DNA from: the human T2T-CHM13v2.0 reference genome, Homo sapiens
Assembly: GCF_009914755.1 (NCBI RefSeq)
Contig: NC_060930.1
Direction: 5' to 3' (one strand)
Length of the DNA stretch: 64,000 nt
In this document: piece by piece, positions 2,957 through 47,411 of the stretch
How positions within the stretch are numbered: position 1 is the first letter of the stretch
Layout of the letters: each line of letters begins with the position of its first letter
Notes under the pieces: model-generated
Told to the model about the DNA's origin: nothing
Database searches by the model: none
What the model saw: only the letters and a program-made list of their open reading frames with translations
Translations under genes and position numbers: made by a program

Positions 2957-3262
<306 letters not shown>

Positions 3263-3267
3263 TAGCA

Positions 3268-3570
3268 TTTTTTTTGGCTTTTGTTTTTGTTTTTTTTTTC
3301 AGACGGAGTCTGGCTCTGTCGCCAGGCTGGAGTGCAGTGGCATGATCTCGGCTCACTCTCCACCTCCCAGGTTCAAGCGATTCTCCTGCCTCAGCGTCCG
3401 GAGTAGCTGGGACTATAGGCGTGCACCACCATACCTGGGTAATTTTTGTATTTTTAGTAGAGACGGGATTTCACCATGTTGGCCTGGATGGTCTCGATCT
3501 CGTGACCCCGTGATCTGCCTGTCTCGGCATCCCAAAGTGGGATTACAGGCATGAGCCACTACACCCGGCC
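3268..3570 (-). mobile_element. Alu (AluSc-like)
   Basis: Full dimer, ctctgtcgccaggctgg diagnostic, TSD ggttagc. Confidence 0.9.
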
Positions 3571-4214
3571 AGGTTAGCTTTACTCTCCCTTCTCTCTCTT
3601 GCCTTTACATCCAAGGTTTTACAGCACCCTGGATTATATTTCACTAGGTTTGTATCCTGCCTTAGACTGGGAGCATGTTGGGAGCAGGAGTGTCTGTATC
3701 ATGGGTGCCAGTGCTCAGTAGAGGTTACAGGATGCCCCAGGAAGGAGATGCAGGAACTTAGCAGAAGGCTCACCTCCTATAACCTCCCAGAGGGCATGTC
3801 CCAGGGAGAGTTCTGGTGTGGTGTTTCCAGCCCACCAAATGTCCAACATGCTGCTCCTTGGCATTGGACCCTGCATGGCCATGCCTGTATTGACAAATAC
3901 TGGGTACAAGGCTTATCTAGCCACTATCTCCCACCCCTCCCCTGCACCCTGATCCTCTCCTCAGCACACAGTGAAACTCAGACAAAAAGGAACTTTGGCC
4001 TCTCTCAACACCTATTATTATTTGAATTTTCTACGGAAAAAATATAGAAATGTTGCGATCTTTCTTTGTTAGTTTTCCAACCCCGGGTTTGATTTAGTAG
4101 CAATTTCACAGACATCCTTTCCTGAAACTAATATTCTTCCACTCCTATTGGCTGAGGAGTTAATAAGAGGAGACACTGTTTAAATTTGCATGTTAGTACT
4201 CCCCTGTGCTTTGA

Positions 4215-4580
<366 letters not shown>

Positions 4581-4621
4581 TTCTTTCTGCTCTTCCTTTT
4601 ATCCTTTCTTCCTTTCTTTCC

Positions 4622-4653
<32 letters not shown>

Positions 4654-4925
4654 TCTCGCTCTTTCGCCCAGGCTGGAGTGCAGTGGCACAATCTCAGCTC
4701 ACTGCAACCTCTGTCCCTGGGTTCAAGCAATTCTCCTGCCTCAGCCTTCTGAGTAGCTGGGATTACAGGTGCCTATCACCACGCCTGGCTAATTTTTATA
4801 CTTTTAGTAGAGACAGGGTTTCACCATGTTGGCCAGGCTGGTCTTGGACTCCTGACCTCTGGTGATCCACCCACCTCGGCCTCCCAAAGTGCTGGGATTA
4901 CAGGCGTGAGCTATCGCACCCAGCC
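4622..4925 (-). mobile_element. AluS
   Basis: Full dimer, TSD tcctttcttcctttctt. Confidence 0.92.
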
Positions 4926-32138: not shown

Positions 32139-32454
<316 letters not shown>

Positions 32455-32828
32455 TCAAACACCACTAAATATAAAATATAATCTTATCATTCCTTATCCT
32501 CAATGATACTTTCCATTTTTTTCTGTACATGGCAAAACATTTATACACCATAGTAGGCAGTTAAAAATGTATAGTATATTCACATTTGCCACCATCAGGG
32601 AACTAGATAATGAGTTAATTTTTTGATGACCACTCTGAAATTTTATTTTAACTATTCTAATTAATATGCCTTAGTTAACATATGGTAGGAACCAGAATGA
32701 ATATCTTCTGGATTACTCTGAGTAGTGAGTATATTGTGTTGTCATACAATGATGTCCTGAAGAGTAACTGATGTGTCAAATACAGTCACCTTTGCTCCTT
32801 CTCTCAGTTGCTTCTGGCTGATGGTCCT

Positions 32829-33268
32829 TGTGATGGTTAATATTGCATGTCAACTTGATTGGATTGAAGGATACAAAGTATTGATCCTGGGTGTGTCTGT
32901 GAGGGTGTCGCCAAAGGAGAGAAACATTTGAGTCAGTGGGCTGGGAAAGGCAGACCCACCCTTAATCTGGGTGAGCACAATCCAATCAGCTGCCAATGCA
33001 GCAAGAATATAAGCAAGCAGAAAAATGTGAAAAGAGAGACTGGCCTAGCCTCCCAGCCTACATCTTTCTCCCATGCTGGATGCTTCCTGCCCTCAAACGT
33101 TGGACTCCAGTCTTTAGTTTTGGAACTTGGATTGGCTCTCCTTGCTCCTCAGCCTGCAGGCAGCCTATTGTGGGACCTTGTGATCATGTGAGTTAATACT
33201 TAATAAACTCCCCTTTATATATATCTATTCCATTAGTTCTGTCCCTCTAAAGAACACTGACTAATACA
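32829..33268 (+). mobile_element. MLT2A1 (HERV-L) solo LTR
   Basis: TGTGATGGTTAATA...CTGACTAATACA, 440 bp, perfect 5-bp TSD GTCCT. Confidence 0.9.
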
Positions 33269-33299
33269 GTCCTCAACATTGTGCTCATTTACACCATGA

Positions 33300-33930
<631 letters not shown>

Positions 33931-34409
33931 CCAAAAAACTCTTTAAAAACTCCACACCTCTTCACACATTTTAAAGATGGCATCTAAATATTTTACCATA
34001 AGTTAAAATAGTTGCAGAGTCTATATTTTCCAAGGTACTGTATAATGCATATTCCTTTATTATATGCGTCAAAGCAAGGAACTACAGATCCAATCTGTAG
34101 ATAACATCTGCTACATATGCTAATCGGCCTCAGTGTCAAACCAAATGTCAAATAATACTTATTTTCCACCAGCAAATTTTTAAGTTCAGATAAAAACATA
34201 CATGTGCATCTTCTGTGACAGTATTCTCATTTTTGAATTCTTACTCTAAAATAAATAGATTATAGCTGGAAGGAAGGAAGGAAGGGATGGAGGGAGGGAG
34301 GGAGGGAGACTCTCTATGAATTAGAATTTGAGATCTGAAGTTTGCAGGAGGAGCAAACAGGCCCAATCCCCAACTTATACTGAAAAATGGTGAAAAAGCA
34401 ACTAGATCT

Positions 34410-35215
<806 letters not shown>

Positions 35216-36568
35216 AAACTGGACTAGATTTGACCAGGCTCAATCTGAACTAGTCCATCGATGTCTTGCAGGTGGTGTGATACCAGACTAAATCACTCTG
35301 GCCTGGGGAACTACAATAATGTACTATAGTGCCAGTAAGACAATGGTGTCTATCACAGGAGACTACTCAGTATACTCTGTCTACTCTGCTGCACATAGTA
35401 GACACCGTCGTCTTGCTGGCACCAAATAAGAAGGCCATCCCCTCTGGACTGGGGATGCAGCTCCATGCAGCAAGTGGCAATTGCCATGATCTTCCTGAGA
35501 AGGGGCAGATCTGAAAAGCACAAATGAAAATTTCAAGGTTGGGGGAAGAAACTGGGTGGGAAGGGAGAGAAATGTTTCATTCTTTGGGACTTTAGAGAAG
35601 AAGGGTTCAAGAATCAGGGTCAAGGTTTCGCCCAGGGAACCGCTGCTGGGAGCCCAGCGGTGAGAGGAGCTGGCTCCTGGACGTGGAGGCAGGCTAGTGG
35701 CTGCAGGGAAGGTAACATGAGGCCAGCCCTGGGTCTCTGAACTGAGAGCTGCTGTAAGTTGTTCTCTGTGTCTACATTGGATGTAGATTTGCCAAAGCAA
35801 ATGGAGGTAAGGCAAGGATCGGTGCAGGTCCTCAGGACAAAAGCTCAGAGAGTTGAGCAGCTGCCCTGCCTTGAAGGACCTCCGGGCAGGCCCTCTCTCC
35901 CCCTCTGTAAGTCATTCCTGCTGGTCAGCCCGCTGACTCACAGAAGGGCCCCACAGACTGCAGCTTTTCACCCCTCTTTTTCCTGCACTCCATGTTGTCT
36001 ACTCCCCAGTCCCCACTTGAAACCTAGGTAGGAACATAAGGCCTTTAAAGAAAGACAGATAAATCAAAATCACCTGTATAATTAGGTAGGCTCTGTGCCT
36101 GAGGAAGGGGTGTCAGCCCTTCCCCTGGTGAGTAAAACACACAGACCCATACTTGCACTTTTCAGTAGCCAAAGCAATATTTTTTGCTTAATTTCTGATT
36201 TCAGGTCTTTCATGAGTGGGTGACAGCACCAGACATATGTGGTTCAAATATATCTGGAGATTGAAACATTTGAATATAAAGACTCATCGAAGAACATTTT
36301 TCCCTCATCAACTTCATGAATATCGTATAAATTCCACATGGATAGTTTATGTAGACATTGAGTGTGCTGCCCTCCCGGGCTCACGGGGAAACCAGGGCTT
36401 AGTGTGCCCTGCCTCGGGGCATTGAGCAGCAGATGGGAAGCAGCAGTGACCTGGTGCTGAGAAAACACATCTCCTCCTGGCTTTTGTTTTGCCAAAGTCC
36501 AGACTGATGGAGTGGGATTGCTCTGGATTGTCCGACTGACGGGGGGAAGAGAGGCCAGTGCTTGGGTT

Positions 36569-37390
36569 TGTGTTAGTTTCCAAGGGCTGCATAACAACGC
36601 ACCACACTCTGGGTGTCTTAAAACAACTGCAATGTATTCTGTCATGATTCCGGAGGCTGGAAGTATAGATTAAAGATGTCAGAAGGTCCCTGCTCTCTCT
36701 GAAAATCCCAGGGAAGACCCCTTCCTTGCCTTTTCCGCTTCTGGTGTTTGCTGGCTGTCCTTGGCATTTCCTGGCTTGTAGACACATCCCTTCAATTGCT
36801 ACCTTCGTTGTCACTTGGCTTTCTCTCCTTATGTCTGTTTCTCCTCCTCTTCTCATAAGGATGCCAGTCACACTGGAGTAGAGCCCACCTGCCTGCTGTA
36901 TGACATTTTACCTAATTACATCTGCAAAGACTCAATTTATAAATATGGTTTTATTCTGAAGTTTTAGGGAATACATGAATTCTGAGGGACATGATTGATA
37001 TGGTTTGGCTGTGTCCCTACCCAAATCTCATCTTGAATTGTAGCTCCCATAATCCTCGCATGCCATGGGAGGGACCCAGTGAGAGGTAATTGAATCATGA
37101 CGGTGGGTTTTTCCCATGCTGTTCTTGTGAGAGTGAGTGAGTTCTCACGAGATCTGATGGTTTTATAAGAGGCTTTTCCCCCTTTTGCTCAGCACTTCTC
37201 CTTGCTGCTGCCATGTGAAGAAGAACATGTTTGCTTCCCCTTCCATCATGTTCGTAAGTTTCCTGAGGCCACCCCAGCCATGCTGAACTGTGAGTCAATT
37301 AAAACTTTTTCCTTTATAAATTACACAGTCTTGGGTATGTCTTTATTAGCAGCATGAGAACAGACTAATACAACGATTCAATCCAGTGTT
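36569..37390 (-). mobile_element. MLT1C-like MaLR LTR (THE1 inserted near its end)
   Basis: tgtgttagtttccaagggctgcataac...gccagtcacactggagtagagcccacc...ttcaatcc. Confidence 0.8.
36996..37372 (+). mobile_element. THE1C-like solo LTR
   Basis: TGATATGGTTTGGCTGTGTCC...CAGACTAATACA; TSD atgat/acgat (one CpG change). Confidence 0.92.
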
Positions 37391-37986
37391 AGAGCTAAAG
37401 AGTCAGAAGCAACCCCTTGACAAACGGGGCTTTGAGGATTTAGGTAGAAGACTAAGGGTTTTGTGGTACCACAATCTCCAAGGACTCCAACCGTGTTCCC
37501 CATGGGGCCCTGGAGGTGCCAGGGCCTGGGTTACCATGGCTATCTGATGCACTAGAGGGGCTTGGACACAAAGCACATGACTACCACCTCAGCAAAAATC
37601 CCCGGGCCCAAGTATGGCACCAAAGAAACAAAACCACCCCATAAAGGGACCATGAAATATGTAATGTAGACAGCTCCACCGTGACCACTGTAGATCCATG
37701 ACCAGAGGCTGCTTCTCAACATTGTGAACCATGTGAAACCTCCACATCATTCCGCAAACCTGGAAGAAATAGAGCCCCAGATGGCTGAGATTGAATTTGC
37801 TGTCAACCAGAGTTTATGTGGTTGATTTATAGGAATTCAAGAAATGTGACATTTCTTATACCACATGATGTGGAACAAAATTCATAACAACTACACAAGA
37901 GGAATAGTTCCAGGATTTATGTGTATTCTTGGGCAATTCGTGGCTGGTCAAAATCCATAAAATTGTATGCCATAGATTGTTTTGAC

Positions 37987-39290
37987 AAGGCCTTAACTCT
38001 TTTGGAGAATTGATTGACAGGGCTGAGTTAGGATTTTCTTAAGTGTTGAGTTGGGACAAACCAGTGGATTTTGAAACAACACTTTTTAAAAACCTGTAAA
38101 ATGCTTTAGGACTCCTGGGCAAGCACTGAGTGAGATATTAACAAACATGTCAGAAAACCCAAAGACAACTTTACTTGAGTTTATTGGAGTGATGTTGCTA
38201 TTTATCCCAGGAGAGCATCGTGAAAAGGAAATGACACAGGGGCGACCTTTAAGGCCACTATCTCAGATTCTGAATGTCTCTTAAAAAATGAACTCTTCTC
38301 CAGGAATGCAAGGGTAGCCCCAGTGTCTTTCAACGTGGGCACGCTGTTGAAGTTGCAGGCCAAGCAGCAGGAATTGGTGGTCAGGGAAGCCCAAGGTGGA
38401 AATCAATCAGAAAATAAGCCACTGCAGGTTCCAGGCTGGGGGAAGTGTGAATATTAAGTAGATGGTACCACAGTGACAGATAATTAGGTCCAGAAATGAT
38501 GCCAACTGATGAAATATCTCAGATAGATTAGTTTCCTTAGGACTGTTGTAACAAAGCACTACAAACTGAGCAGCTTATAAAATAGACATTTATTGTCTCA
38601 CAGTTCTAGGGCTACAATTCCAAGATCCAGGTGTCAGCAGAGCCACACTCCCTTGGAGGGTGCTAAGGAAGGCTTCCAGATCTCTCCTGTCTTCAGGTAG
38701 TTCCTTGGCTTGTGGCAGCATAATTCCAACCTTCCCATGGTGTTCTCCCTGCATGTATCTATCTCCAAATTTCTACTTAAGAACGTCCGTCATATTGGAT
38801 GAGAGACCCACCCTAACCCAGTGATTCCCTCTTCTTAACTAATTGTGTCTATATAGATTCTATGTCCAATAAGGTCACATTCTGAGGTACTGGGCATCAG
38901 ACTTCAATGTATGGATTCTGCAGAGACACAGTTTGAGTGTCTTTGCTTAGGACGATCTTTCTCAGACACTGCACCTGACTCTCTGAGAACTTTAGAAATA
39001 GAAGAGGATTTAGGGTCCACTGAAAACCAGAAGACACTTAAGGTCACCTCCCTAAGCATCTACCTAAAAGGTTTTCAGAAAGGATGGGGTCTGTATTTAC
39101 ACTCGGATTCAAGTCTTTGGTACTGAAGGAACTGGCCTGGGAGCTGTAGACCAGGCTTGTGTAAAGCAGGCATGGGCTCATCAACACTGAGTGTCTCGCT
39201 CTACTGCACACTCACCCTCCCTCAACTCTATATATTCCCTCTCCACCCCCATGGCTCTCCTTTCCAACAAAGCAGGTGAAGGAGAGTGGG
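37987..39290 (+). pseudogene. Decayed Gypsy gag homologous to PNMA-family (Ma antigen) capsid proteins; stops, frameshifts and an MLT1B insertion
   Basis: Collinear fragments: KALTLLEN*; PVDFE...L*NALGLLGKH*V; ENPKTTLLEFIG...IPGE; FKATISDSECL; QK*CQLMKYLR; TAPDSLRTLE...GSTEN; VDQACVKQ/MGSSTLSVSLYCTL; PPPWLSFPTKQVKE. Confidence 0.82.
38524..38945 (-). mobile_element. MLT1B-like MaLR LTR inserted in the gag relic
   Basis: attagtttccttaggactgttgtaacaaag...ggtagttccttggcttgtggcagcataa...aaggtcacattctgaggtactggg. Confidence 0.82.
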
Positions 39291-40290
39291 AAGAGCAGGG
39301 CAAGGAAGCTATTACTCACTTCCATGAATACAGGAGCTAGACATGGATGGGTTAACTTCAGTAGTCCATGTCTTGCTTGCTGTGATAGATGGGAATTTAC
39401 CACAGCAACAAAAAGCCCTGACTGCCCTTGTGCAGGCCTTGGGGAGCTTGATGTGGACATCCTTCCATAGGCCTGGAAGCTGAGCATTTAAGGCTGGGTA
39501 CCCTCTGGTCTGGCCCAGATGTGAATCCCACTTGGTCCTTGAAAAAGTGGCCTGGAATCCAAGTGAAGCAACTGCACCGTGGAGGAGGCCTCCAGTGGTT
39601 CCAATGGAGACCAGGAGCCCAGTTTAGTAGGAAGATTCAGAGCAAGCCACTGAAGGTTTACAGAAGCACAATGGCCTTGTTTTTGCTCTTCTGATGGTAG
39701 ACTGCATCCACTGATGAACCGGCAGCTAGACTGGGGAGATGAGGTGTGTTTATGGTGATCCTGGAAAATCAGGGAGGGGCAGGGAGTGGAAACACTCCAA
39801 ATAACACTCCAAATGAGGCTTTGCTGGCTCCTTTAGTTTTCCCTTTTACTCCAAACTACAGAAGTCCTAAAATGGGAAGGAGAATGGTGAGAAGGAAGAG
39901 GGTACTGGCCTAGTTAGAGGACCAGATTTATTTTGGTCAAAAATTGACGTTTTTCCTCTCCTGATGCCTTTAAACCAAACACTGCTCCCCAAAAGCTGGG
40001 GCTTTTTAGGCACTTGACCAGACTAGGAAGATTCCAAGACTGAGATGCACAGTGAGCTTAGGGGTTGCCTCCCCAATCTGGGACTCGGCTCACTTATTGC
40101 AGACCCTGTCTCCCATGCCTGGTCCTGAGGACATCTGGAGAAGATCCCTCACCAACCAACAGGTGGCTTCAGGTGGTGGGGGTGAGCATCCTGGGAAACC
40201 GGGGCCTGGCCCTCTTGGAGGGACATCAGGGTGGGGAATACATTTTCTTTTCAGAGACTCAAAGATCCTTTGGGAGGTGGGAGGGAAAGA

Positions 40291-40820
40291 TGCGAGATCT
40301 CTGTTTGAAAATATCAGTTTGCGTTTAGGTCTTGCTGCTACAGTACGTTTTCCTCTCCTCCCTCCCAGAAGATAGCCTGGCCTTTGTGTTCCCAGCCAGC
40401 ATGAGGGACGCTTTGTGTGGCTCTGCAGGAAGTATCCGTTGCCAGGCACCCAGAAGACACCCCTCCTCCTGGCTTTTGTTTTGCCTAGGCCTGGGCTGTT
40501 GGAGGGGAATTGTGCTGCCTGAGAGGGACAGAGAATGAGTGAGTGCTCAGGGTTGAAAAGACCCACGCAGCTGTAGGGGAGGGAGGTTTTCAAGAGCTCT
40601 CCTCTGGAACTAAGAAGGGAATGGGGCTTCTGTGATTTCCACACCTAGAGAAGCAACGCTTTCCCCAACATATCTTGAGTGTTTGGGGGTGGAAGATGGC
40701 AGAATCACGGAAGATTGCATTCCGGGTTCATGCAGAATGGCTGCCCCTCCACTCCTCACCCAGTCCTAGTAGAAATTAGAAAAGGAAGCCTTAAGCTGGC
40801 CCCCTCACACACAGGGGTGG
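40291..40820 (+). mobile_element. 3' LTR of the MamGyp-like element (3' end not resolved, probably truncated by L1-like DNA)
   Basis: Begins with TG after the PPT; aligns by eye with both halves of the 5' LTR (ggaag...agaagacac...ctcctcctggcttttgttttgcc; gggcttctgtgatttccaca...caacgctttcccca). Confidence 0.7.
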
Positions 40821-40829
40821 GTGAGCGGA

Positions 40830-42060
40830 CTGAAGCCTAGATTTCTGTTCCCACTGAATCCTTCACTTACACAAACCTCATCAGCCCACTTCTCTCCACC
40901 TAACTCATTGGAGTTATTTTTTATTCTTCTGTGGGATTTTTCAACATGCCTCCAGTTCTCACTATACCACCTCCTGACTTCTATAACTAAATTTATTTTT
41001 ATATTCTCAATGTTTATAGCCTTTATGGGTTTAGTCTCTCTAGCTCTAATTAATTTATTCATGTCATGTATATATATTTATTTTTAAAACCAGGATTCAC
41101 CATGCAGCATTTACAATAGTATGATTATAAATCTAGGATTCACTGCAGAACTAAAGTAACGCTGTTGGATAAATAAGGAAATGTACTCACTTGTGACTAA
41201 AAGCTGTGACACTAGAAGAAAAAATATGTCCAAATTTTAAAGTCAACAATATATTTTCTTATACTATATCAATTGCACAAAATTATGCCACATTTTATAA
41301 TAGATTGCTTTATATTTGAACCCTGACTTTCTTTTAGATAAGTTTGTTTTTCTTATAGTTTCTAATTGCCTTTGTTTTTTCCTAGGAGAAGCATAGGGCT
41401 TTACCTTTTCACTAATGTCATTTAGCTTCTTAGTGATATTTGTCAAGGTGAATCCACTGATCTTTGACTTCTTGTTTAATTTGAGCAGGTTGCTTTTTAG
41501 ATTTGCTGCATAATCTTCATGGGTTTGTCTCCCCTTTCTTGTTCTTATACCTTCTTCTTTGGATTCATTTTAAGTTTTGATGAAGTAGATGCTCAATACT
41601 TTTTTAGAAGAGTGATTGGTAGAAGACCTTCTGAGCTATGCATGTCTGAGAATACCTTTATATTGTCTTCATGTTTGAGTAATGATGTGGGTTGGCATAT
41701 AACTCTAAGTTGAAAATAACTTTTCCTCAGAACTTTGAAACCAAGCATCTAGCCATAAGGACAGGAAATTGGATGCCCACCTGATTTTCATTCCTTTTAG
41801 AAAAATGATATACCTTCCCTGCTCTGACTCTCAAAATCTCTTAAGCCATTTTATTTATCTATGGTATTCTGAAATTTCATATCTTGATATTAATCTTTCC
41901 CCATCTACTAATCTTTCTCAATACGTTTCAATATGAGTTGTTAGATTTTTCTTTACACTTTAGAAATGTTATTGTATAATTTAATTTACTATTTTATCTC
42001 CTTTATTTTCTTATTTTCTATTTCTGGAACTCCCCTTGAACAGATTTTGGGTTGATCCTC
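40830..42060 (-). mobile_element. Highly decayed L1M/HAL1-like sequence
   Basis: T-rich, with ttgcatgtctgagaatacctttatattg...ttgaaaataacttttcctcagaactttgaa-like motifs. Confidence 0.5.
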
Positions 42061-42064
42061 CATA

Positions 42065-43170
<1,106 letters not shown>

Positions 43171-45026: not shown

Positions 45027-45961
<935 letters not shown>

Positions 45962-46959: not shown

Positions 46960-47411
<452 letters not shown>

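What the first reader, a model, noticed from the sequence alone, without database searches (positions are those of the whole stretch)
37987..39290. Full-length fossil of a PNMA-like Gag (N-terminal domain plus capsid) readable across frames
Manual translation gives collinear matches to PNMA1/2/5 (reference sequences recalled from memory): 37987 KALTLLEN* vs MALTLLEDW (the ATG is now AAG, in a gacNNNg context); 38061 PVDFE..L*NALGLLGKH*V vs PADFE..LQETLKSLGRYRL; 38153 ENPKTTLLEFIG..IPGE vs ENAKAALLELTG..IPRE; 38248 FKATISDSECL vs FKPPTSDAEFL; 38491 QK*CQLMKYLR vs EKRRRLMESLR; TAPDSLRTLE..GSTEN vs TTAECLKALE..GSVES; 39146 VDQACVKQ/MGSSTLSVSLYCTL vs ADQVRLEQVMAGATLNQMLWCRL; 39243 PPPWLSFPTKQVKE vs PPPSFLELMKVIRE. 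In the 38491 block TGA-TGC-CAA are each single CpG-decay products of Arg codons. PNMA proteins are Gypsy-gag-derived and some form virus-like capsids. This looks like an undomesticated relative still inside its LTRs, showing the PNMA N-terminal domain already present in the mobile element. It is not a functional gene in this genome.
Basis: partly seen in the sequence, partly recalled or inferred. Interest (0 to 1): 0.85.

Follow-up and report, generated by a model that had tools for sequence, protein, structure and literature searches.

The report
Decayed PNMA-type Gag retroelement with LTRs
This stretch of human chromosome 6 is the dead, mutation-riddled remains of an ancient Gypsy-type jumping gene whose coat-protein gene is a relative of the human PNMA genes; it is real but is one of several such relics, and the idea it illustrates is already in print.

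Summary
As a DNA query against the coding sequences of 15 human PNMA-family genes, window 37987-38525 matches the 5' third of four of them. The best matches are E=1.1e-7 and 3.1e-7, and the second runs in register from coding base 8. Window 38947-39400 matches capsid-coding bases 686-881 of another gene (E=8.8e-5). The best of 114 control segments reached E=0.048. Standard protein tools miss it: Pfam on single frames gave nothing.

The gag relic lies between two same-sense repeats (36380-36538 and 40364-40767). A relic on chr2 carries one copy of this repeat at the same distance upstream of a homologous leader and N-terminal domain. The structure therefore reads LTR-leader-gag-LTR, with two later MLT1-type insertions. 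No pol was found, and no poly(A).

It is best read as a decayed copy of an ancient mammalian Ty3/Gypsy element, probably of the kind Repbase calls MamGyp, and not as a PNMA pseudogene.

The concept is not new. PNMA2's origin from MamGyp-int, and the N-terminal domain in mobile metaviruses, are both published. At least two better-preserved relics exist elsewhere in this genome. Whether the relics sit inside or beside the PNMA gene clade is unresolved (AU p=0.30). Interest is modest.

The parts
36380..36555 (+). 5' LTR remnant, proximal part (a start near 36317 is only a guess)
   Evidence: nhmmer: 36380-36538 matches 40364-40521 (E about 1e-11), and 36409-36531 matches the chr2 copy L053rc 2615-2714 (E=1.4e-6 and 9.1e-7). 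The repeat finder family D10 is at 73%.
36556..36993 (+). Later insertion of an MLT1-type (MaLR) LTR into the 5' LTR. The family name is from my recall of the consensus start; no tool named it.
   Evidence: blastn matches to the same repeat in L030, L018 and L029, and to the second copy at 38526-38946 through L030.
36996..37372 (.). Another interspersed repeat inserted next to the MLT1; family not identified
   Evidence: 68-78% blastn matches to unrelated loci L026, L023 and L025. The hub's table lists 36990-37376 as masked.
37377..37681 (+). Presumed rest of the 5' LTR; not shown
   Evidence: Its length fits: 382 nt here against 374 nt between the matched blocks in the chr2 copy. No significant similarity to the 3' LTR or to chr2.
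37682..37986 (+). End of LTR and untranslated leader, shared with other relics and absent from PNMA genes
   Evidence: The chr2 copy L053rc 3037-3675 aligns to 37682-38271 (E=5.4e-13; E=3.6e-13). The chr1 copy L054 aligns to 37805-38141 (E=0.0013). The leader has no hit in gene loci or coding sequences.
37987..38329 (+). gag, N-terminal PNMA_N-like (RRM-like) domain, broken by stops and frame shifts. The start codon position now reads AAG.
   Evidence: nhmmer against PNMA coding sequences: E=1.1e-7, 3.1e-7, 4.2e-4 and 5.8e-3; reverse search. A DNA profile of 14 genes plus 2 relics hits 37980-38303 at E=4.4e-4. Codon-column read-through with X at breaks.
38330..38525 (+). gag linker and start of capsid; weak
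Evidence: Only my frameshift-tolerant alignment enters it.
38526..38946 (+). Second MLT1-type LTR inserted into the capsid region; ends approximate
   Evidence: blastn to L018, L030 and L029 over 38521-38933. The start was read by comparison with the copy at 36556.
38947..39290 (+). gag, capsid remainder
   Evidence: nhmmer: 38969-39174 matches CDS 686-881 of the chr14 351-aa gene, E=8.8e-5 and 4.5e-4. The profile alignment runs to about 39300.
39291..40363 (+). Unassigned internal stretch. No pol, no zinc knuckle and no poly(A) were detected. A purine-rich run at 40273-40291 is a possible polypurine tract (a guess).
   Evidence: Pfam on three frames: 0 families. tblastn with gag-pol proteins P0031 and P0053: best hit in this stretch E=0.21. 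Sequence and TRF.
40364..40767 (+). 3' LTR (an end near 40888 is only a guess)
   Evidence: 40426-40767 matches L053rc 2629-2976 at E=5.2e-14, and 40364-40521 matches the 5' copy. No leader or gag match follows it anywhere in the window.

Best explanation
The locus is a decayed copy of an ancient mammalian Ty3/Gypsy (Metaviridae) LTR retrotransposon. Its gag encoded an N-terminal PNMA_N (RRM-like) domain followed by a PNMA-type capsid.

It entered this intergenic site by reverse transcription and integration, probably some 80-170 million years ago. It was then hit by two MLT1-type LTRs and one other repeat, and has since drifted neutrally to about 40% G+C with many stops and frame shifts. It does nothing now.

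As preserved it reads LTR - leader - gag - about 1.1 kb of unassigned sequence - LTR, with no room for pol. Either pol was deleted, or the copy belonged to a gag-only element moved by others.

Shown: the homology to PNMA genes, the flanking repeats, and the shared leader and repeat in the chr2 copy. Inferred: transposition as the origin, the age, and the name MamGyp.
For: - Homology of both gag domains to PNMA coding sequences, in order and on one strand, with 0 of 114 controls reaching E=0.01.
- Same-sense repeats on both sides of gag.
- The chr2 relic used as a query finds exactly three places in the 64-kb window: repeat, leader plus N-domain, repeat.
- The repeat-to-leader distance is about 400 nt in both copies once the two insertions are taken out.
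- The repeat's conserved core occurs only three times in the genome, twice here and once on chr2, with 0 control matches.
- The leader and repeat are absent from PNMA gene loci and coding sequences.
- There is no poly(A) tract between gag and the 3' repeat.
- Gag-pol proteins with PNMA_N, PNMA capsid, RT and RNase H exist in the public protein library, so this domain order does occur in autonomous elements.
- The repeat pair differs by K2P 0.337 over 90 nt.
- Nested MLT1-type insertions fit an old age.
- Repbase lists Gypsy relics in the human genome, MamGyp-int with its LTRs (PMC5753468, passages read).
Against: - No TG..CA ends, target-site duplication, primer-binding site or polypurine tract could be fixed. 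My candidates have no statistical support.
- The 3' part of the 5' LTR shows no significant similarity to the 3' LTR.
- No pol remnant was found here or downstream in the chr2 and chr1 copies.
- Only three copies of the repeat core exist, so an abundant LTR family was not shown.
- The capsid half has no match to any other relic.
- I could not run RepeatMasker or Dfam, so the family name is recalled, not tested.
- The age rests on 90 aligned bases and on assumed rates.
Confidence: 0.8

Rival explanations
1. It is a pseudogene derived from a domesticated PNMA gene, either a processed copy or an old segmental duplicate, and not a copy of the mobile element. The flanking repeats would then be unrelated.
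For: In the trees the four relics sit next to the chr14 353-aa and chr8 364-aa genes, inside the clade of human PNMA genes (SH-like 0.965 for genes plus relics). No pol was found.
Against: - The repeats flank gag in the same sense, and the chr2 relic has the same repeat at the same distance upstream.
- The leader is shared among relics but is not in gene loci, within 1.5 kb flanks, or in coding sequences.
- There is no poly(A).
- The tree cannot tell inside from beside: with the genes forced to be one clade, the likelihood drop is 5.6 and AU p=0.30.
- The relics' rows were placed by the codon columns of the chr14 353-aa gene, which may pull them towards it.
- Distant 5'UTR exons of PNMA genes were not checked.
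Confidence: 0.1
2. The copy is an internally deleted autonomous element, not a gag-only one. This is a sub-question of the best explanation: pol was lost after insertion.
For: Autonomous gag-pol relatives with the same gag domains exist. Deletions are common in old copies. Part of the capsid is already missing.
Against: No pol remnant in three copies: the window, chr2 and chr1. Such remnants could simply be beyond detection at this age.
Confidence: 0.5
3. The similarity is due to chance or composition, and there is no gag here.
For: Pfam found nothing on single frames. The best tblastn E was 0.10. Strict alignment settings do not separate the locus from controls.
Against: E=1.1e-7 and 3.1e-7 against coding sequences, against a best control of 0.048 among 114. 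The alignment is in register from coding base 8. The chr2 relic matches at E=3.6e-13 and has its own clear N-domain.
Confidence: 0.02

Closest known systems
MamGyp-int with MamGypLTR1/2 (and the other human Gypsy relics listed by Repbase: LTR85, LTR88, LTR104_Mam, MamGypLTR3, X1-X4_LR)
   Same: An ancient, dead Gypsy-type LTR element in the human genome. The PNMA2 open reading frame is described as the Gag part of MamGyp-int (10.1101/2023.02.09.527862, passage read; PMC5753468, passages and table read).
   Different: I could not compare with the Repbase or Dfam consensus, so membership is untested. This copy, as preserved, has gag and LTR remnants but no pol.
Human PNMA genes. The three nearest are the chr8 364-aa, chr14 353-aa and chr14 351-aa genes, which are PNMA2, PNMA1 and MOAP1 by my recall of place and length.
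   Same: Same two domains in the same order. DNA homology at E=1e-7 to 1e-4, with 48-52% nucleotide identity over the N-domain.
   Different: The genes are intact, more G+C-rich (0.49-0.64 against 0.40), and lack the leader and the flanking repeats. The relic has no open frame.
Metaviral gag-pol elements of non-mammalian vertebrates with an RBD-CA-NC gag (Gypsy12_DR type, 'Barthez' clade)
   Same: PNMA_N plus PNMA capsid within a mobile LTR element. Library proteins P0031 and P0053 carry these together with RT and RNase H (PMC11011659 passages, PMC3789554 passages, PMC3670739 table).
   Different: Those are intact or recent and carry pol. In the N-domain tree they fall outside the clade of human genes plus relics.
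Other PNMA-type gag relics in this genome (chr1:117.345M, chrX:107.84M, chrX:113.31M, chr17:59.09M, chr2:30.03M, chr1:73.62M and others)
   Same: Stop-ridden gag homologues. Four of them, counting this one, form one clade (SH-like 0.885, SH-aLRT 89). Three share the leader or N-domain DNA with the window.
   Different: The chr1:117.345M and chrX:107.84M relics are far better preserved (E=3.7e-17 and 4.2e-43 to a gene coding sequence). Among the copies I examined, flanking repeats on both sides were seen only in the window copy; I did not search the others for LTRs.

Membership tests
PNMA-type Gag (Pfam PNMA_N PF20846 + PNMA PF14893) | Match to the PNMA_N model or to the N-domain of family members | tested here: met
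   Pfam on single frames: no hit. The genome scan did not list the locus. DNA homology to the N-domain coding part of four genes was found, with best E=1.1e-7 and controls no better than 0.048.
PNMA-type Gag (Pfam PNMA_N PF20846 + PNMA PF14893) | Match to the PNMA capsid model or to the capsid of family members | tested here: met
   Pfam: no hit. nhmmer matched CDS 686-881 of one gene at E=8.8e-5. Frameshift-tolerant alignment to a 48-protein profile was exceeded by 0 of 296 tiles and 0 of 150 shuffles. Support is weaker with the 8-gene profile at higher frameshift cost: 4-10 of 296 tiles.
PNMA-type Gag (Pfam PNMA_N PF20846 + PNMA PF14893) | Open reading frame giving a protein | tested here: not met
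   No frame is open for more than 101 codons in 37987-39470. 14 of the first 112 codon positions are unreadable. It is a relic, not a gene.
Ty3/Gypsy (Metaviridae) LTR retrotransposon | Two long terminal repeats in the same sense around the internal part | tested here: met
   36380-36538 matches 40364-40521 (E about 1e-11). The 3' copy matches the chr2 upstream repeat over 342 nt (E=5.2e-14). Only part of the 5' copy is recognisable.
Ty3/Gypsy (Metaviridae) LTR retrotransposon | TG..CA ends, target-site duplication, primer-binding site, polypurine tract | tested here: inconclusive
   Candidates read by eye (TG at 36317, CA at 40888, a 4-of-5 flanking repeat, TGG at 37782, a purine run at 40273-40291) have no statistical support.
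Ty3/Gypsy (Metaviridae) LTR retrotransposon | pol (protease, reverse transcriptase, RNase H, integrase) | tested here: not met
   Pfam on 39290-40452 in three frames: none. tblastn with gag-pol proteins: best E=0.21. About 1.07 kb is left between gag and the 3' LTR.
MamGyp-int / MamGypLTR (Repbase, Dfam) | Similarity to the family consensus | not testable with these tools
   No Dfam or Repbase library is on hand. The name rests on PMC5753468 and 10.1101/2023.02.09.527862 and on my recall.
Processed pseudogene of a PNMA gene | Poly(A) tail, target-site duplication around the cDNA, parental UTRs, no LTRs | tested here: not met
   No A-run or tandem repeat of that kind in 39290-40364. Flanking same-sense repeats are present. 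The leader is absent from gene loci within 1.5 kb. Distant 5'UTR exons were not checked.

The most novel reading that the evidence does not exclude
The chr6, chr2, chr1 and chrX relics form one clade that sits inside, or right at the base of, the eutherian PNMA gene clade. The chr6 copy keeps two LTRs but has no room for pol. If both hold, a gag-only, PNMA-type LTR element was still being copied in stem eutherians. Some PNMA genes (the autosomal chr8 and chr14 ones first) would then be separate captures of mobile copies, not duplicates of one domesticated gene. That would bear on the disagreement between the 'several retrotranspositions' view (PMC3789554) and the 'one domestication, then duplication' view (PMC3670739, PMC11011659).
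Probability: 0.2. Interest if true: 0.6.

Novelty: new member of a known kind. Interest (0 to 1): 0.3.

Why it matters
It gives a concrete human locus where a PNMA-type gag, with both the RNA-binding-like N-domain and the capsid, still lies between LTR remnants. The T2T survey of metaviral capsids found no LTRs next to the capsid genes and set aside 2,673 broken capsid-like sequences (PMC11011659, section read). Such relics are the only direct record of the mobile phase in mammals, and could help decide how the PNMA family grew. On its own, this badly decayed copy adds little beyond what Repbase and the PNMA papers already say.

Tried and rejected
- Pfam hmmscan on single-frame read-throughs with X at stops: nothing.
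- Solved-structure sequence search with one frame: nothing.
- Whole-genome DNA search with 37400-38520: only itself.
- tblastn and tblastx against genes and relics: no clear signal.
- DNA profiles built from genes alone: not significant.
- My first frameshift aligner with free long jumps chained noise and placed the start wrongly, so I dropped it for claims.
- The broad protein profile did not detect the N-domain: score 26.8, below the control mean.
- Window 38940-40440 against 28 relic loci: no hit.
- nhmmer controls against whole gene loci were swamped by Alu matches in the flanks. I repeated them against coding sequences only.
- Global alignments of the presumed 3' part of the 5' LTR reached about 62-63% identity with many gaps, which is not above noise.
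I replaced it with FastTree and with a 27-row IQ-TREE and AU test. For that run I kept 11 human genes, 4 relics and 12 library proteins, and left out 35 rows.
- Chance similarity and a processed pseudogene were considered and set aside for the reasons given under rivals.

Full report
**What is there.** The window is human T2T chr6:135222001-135286000. 37987-37989 is AAG, followed by a short open stretch and a stop. Further pieces lie in all three + frames up to about 39290. Between 38526 and 38946 lies an inserted repeat that also occurs at 36556-36993. I call it MLT1-type from my recall of that family's consensus start; no tool named it.

**Is it more than chance?** Standard protein tools say little.
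- Pfam hmmscan on the six single-frame read-throughs, with X at stops, found 0 families at E<=10.
- The genome-wide scans with PF14893 (36 matches of 40 candidates scored) and PF20846 (21 of 25) did not list this locus.
- The best of 750 tblastn HSPs from 15 human PNMA proteins against the 64-kb window did fall here (38191-38298), but only at E=0.10.

DNA-level comparison is decisive. Against the 15 coding sequences (19,368 nt):
- Window 37987-38525 matched the chr8 364-aa gene (E=1.1e-7, CDS 75-346).
- It matched the chr14 353-aa gene (E=3.1e-7), with query base 8 on CDS base 8 and the alignment running to CDS 337.
- It matched the chr14 351-aa gene (E=4.2e-4) and a chrX gene (E=5.8e-3).
- Window 38947-39400 matched CDS 686-881 of the chr14 351-aa gene (E=8.8e-5).
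- Of 114 control segments of 540 nt from the rest of the window, the best reached E=0.048.

Run the other way, the coding sequences hit the whole window only at 37995-38329 and 38967-39172, on the + strand and in gene order.

My own frameshift-tolerant profile alignment agrees, but it depends on settings.
- The N-domain against an 8-gene profile scored 54.3, exceeded by 0 of 516 tiles and 1 of 200 shuffles. At a higher frameshift cost, 8 of 516 tiles exceeded it.
- The capsid against a 48-protein profile scored 73.2 and 52.3 at two frameshift costs, exceeded by 0 of 296 tiles and 0 of 150 shuffles in both cases.
- The same broad profile did not detect the N-domain.
- A first version with free long jumps chained noise, and I do not rely on it.

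**Preservation.** Without the insertion, about 294 codons remain of the roughly 335 of the conserved gag. 14 of the first 112 codon positions are stops, gaps or frame breaks. G+C is 0.40, against 0.49-0.64 in the genes.

**Surroundings.**
- A same-sense repeat flanks gag: 36380-36538 matches 40364-40521 (E about 1e-11; 73% identity over an ungapped 90 nt).
- A relic on chr2 (locus L053, read in reverse) carries one copy of this repeat. Used as a query, it finds exactly three places in the 64-kb window:
  - 36423-36531 (E=9.1e-7);
  - 37682-38271, the leader plus N-domain (E=5.4e-13);
  - 40426-40767 (E=5.2e-14).
- The distance from repeat to leader is about 400 nt in both copies once the MLT1-type element and a second inserted repeat (36996-37372) are taken out.
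- The repeat's conserved core occurs three times in the genome, twice here and once on chr2, with no control matches.
- Relics on chr1:73.62M and chrX:113.31M also share leader or N-domain DNA with the window (E=0.0013 and 0.0014).
- The leader and the repeat have no match in the 27 PNMA gene loci (flanks of 1.5 kb) or in the coding sequences.
- Nothing after the right-hand repeat resembles a leader or gag, so it is a 3' LTR and not the start of a second element.
- Between gag and the 3' repeat there is no poly(A) and no trace of pol: Pfam gave 0 families and the best tblastn E was 0.21.
- LTR ends, target-site duplication, primer-binding site and polypurine tract could not be fixed. The candidates I read by eye are guesses.
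- The 3' part of the 5' LTR is not recognisable.

**Explanation.** The order repeat - leader - gag (N-domain, capsid) - repeat, seen here and in part on chr2, is that of an LTR retrotransposon.
- Library proteins with PNMA_N, PNMA capsid, reverse transcriptase and RNase H (P0031, P0053) show that autonomous elements with this gag exist.
- I therefore read the locus as a dead copy of an ancient mammalian Ty3/Gypsy element, later hit by three insertions.
- The repeat pair differs by K2P 0.337. This gives roughly 77-169 million years at 2.2e-9 to 1e-9 per site per year. It is a rough figure from 90 bases and assumed rates.
- Whether pol was deleted or never present cannot be told.
- The main rival, a pseudogene of a domesticated PNMA gene, is disfavoured by the flanking repeats, by the shared leader that the genes lack, and by the missing poly(A). 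Distant 5'UTR exons were not checked.

**Relationship to the genes.**
- In a DNA tree of the N-domain (18 rows), the four relics group together (0.856) next to the chr8 gene.
- In a protein tree (62 rows, 112 columns, relics read with X at breaks), they group together (0.885). They lie within a clade of all human PNMA genes plus relics (0.965) that excludes the more distant library proteins.
- In a 27-row maximum-likelihood tree they are again one clade (SH-aLRT 89), beside the chr14 353-aa gene. Forcing the 11 genes to be one clade costs only 5.6 log-likelihood units (AU p=0.30). Inside and beside therefore cannot be told apart.
- The relics' rows were placed by that gene's codon columns, which may bias them towards it.
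- The library carries no names, so which rows are marsupial or non-mammalian is not known.

**Comparison with print.**
- Repbase lists human Gypsy relics: MamGyp-int with MamGypLTR1a-d, 2, 2b and 2c, and others (PMC5753468, passages and table read).
- The PNMA2 reading frame is described as the Gag part of a MamGyp-int element (10.1101/2023.02.09.527862, passage read).
- The PNMA N-terminal domain has been found in 12 Repbase metaviral consensus sequences and in 217 reading frames of reptiles, amphibians and fish. The authors conclude that an element with this architecture was active in an early mammal (PMC11011659, passages read).
- The same paper found no LTRs next to the human metaviral capsid genes and set aside 2,673 broken capsid-like sequences (section 5 read in full).
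- The growth of the family is disputed. Several retrotranspositions are proposed in PMC3789554 (passages read). One domestication followed by duplication is proposed in PMC3670739 and PMC11011659 (passages read).
- A full-text search for 'PNMA' with 'MamGyp' found only the two versions of one paper. 'MamGyp' alone found 23 papers, none listed as dealing with the gag of these relics.
- I did not open supplements.

**Verdict.** Better-preserved gag relics lie at chr1:117.345M (E=3.7e-17, N-domain through capsid) and chrX:107.84M (E=4.2e-43, CDS 2-1024). The one feature worth a follow-up is the pair of LTR remnants around a gag with no pol, together with the relics' place at or within the base of the gene clade.

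Noticed in passing
L055 (G000:C1:117342000-117351000), about 3421-4743; same as L049: A much better preserved PNMA-type gag relic on chr1. Gene coding sequences match it from CDS 7 to 982 in three collinear blocks (best E=3.7e-17), with an Alu inside. It shares no detectable leader DNA with the window copy. I did not look for LTRs around it.
   Followed up: partly
L013/L017 (G000:C23:107840139-107843556): A nearly full-length PNMA-like sequence on chrX (CDS 2-1024 of the chr14 353-aa gene, E=4.2e-43) with 4 stops in the Pfam match. It is either a pseudogene or a young relic. I could not tell whether it is one of the pseudogenes mentioned in PMC11011659.
   Followed up: no
window 36556-36993 and 38526-38946: Two MLT1-type LTRs lie in the same sense 1970 bp apart, one in the 5' LTR and one in the capsid. 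They look like two separate insertions: the DNA between them is the Gypsy leader and gag, and it is contiguous in the chr2 copy. A single MaLR element is therefore unlikely.
   Followed up: partly
window 36459-36493, 40451-40485; L053 (chr2): A 22-base stretch of the LTR is identical in all three copies, while the surrounding LTR is only about 70% alike. It could be chance, a CpG-free stretch, or a once-functional site.
   Followed up: no
window 32139-35078, 42611-42915, 45029-45311, 33329-33930, 47009-47305: Alu-like repeats on both sides of the element account for most direct-repeat families in the repeat finder output. They are not part of the finding.
   Followed up: no
genome-wide: Beyond the intact genes, the Pfam scans list 24 weak PNMA-capsid matches and 6 weak PNMA_N matches with stops. 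nhmmer with gene coding sequences confirms at least 15 relic loci at E<=0.01. The window's locus was missed by both Pfam scans, so the true number of relics is higher.
   Followed up: partly
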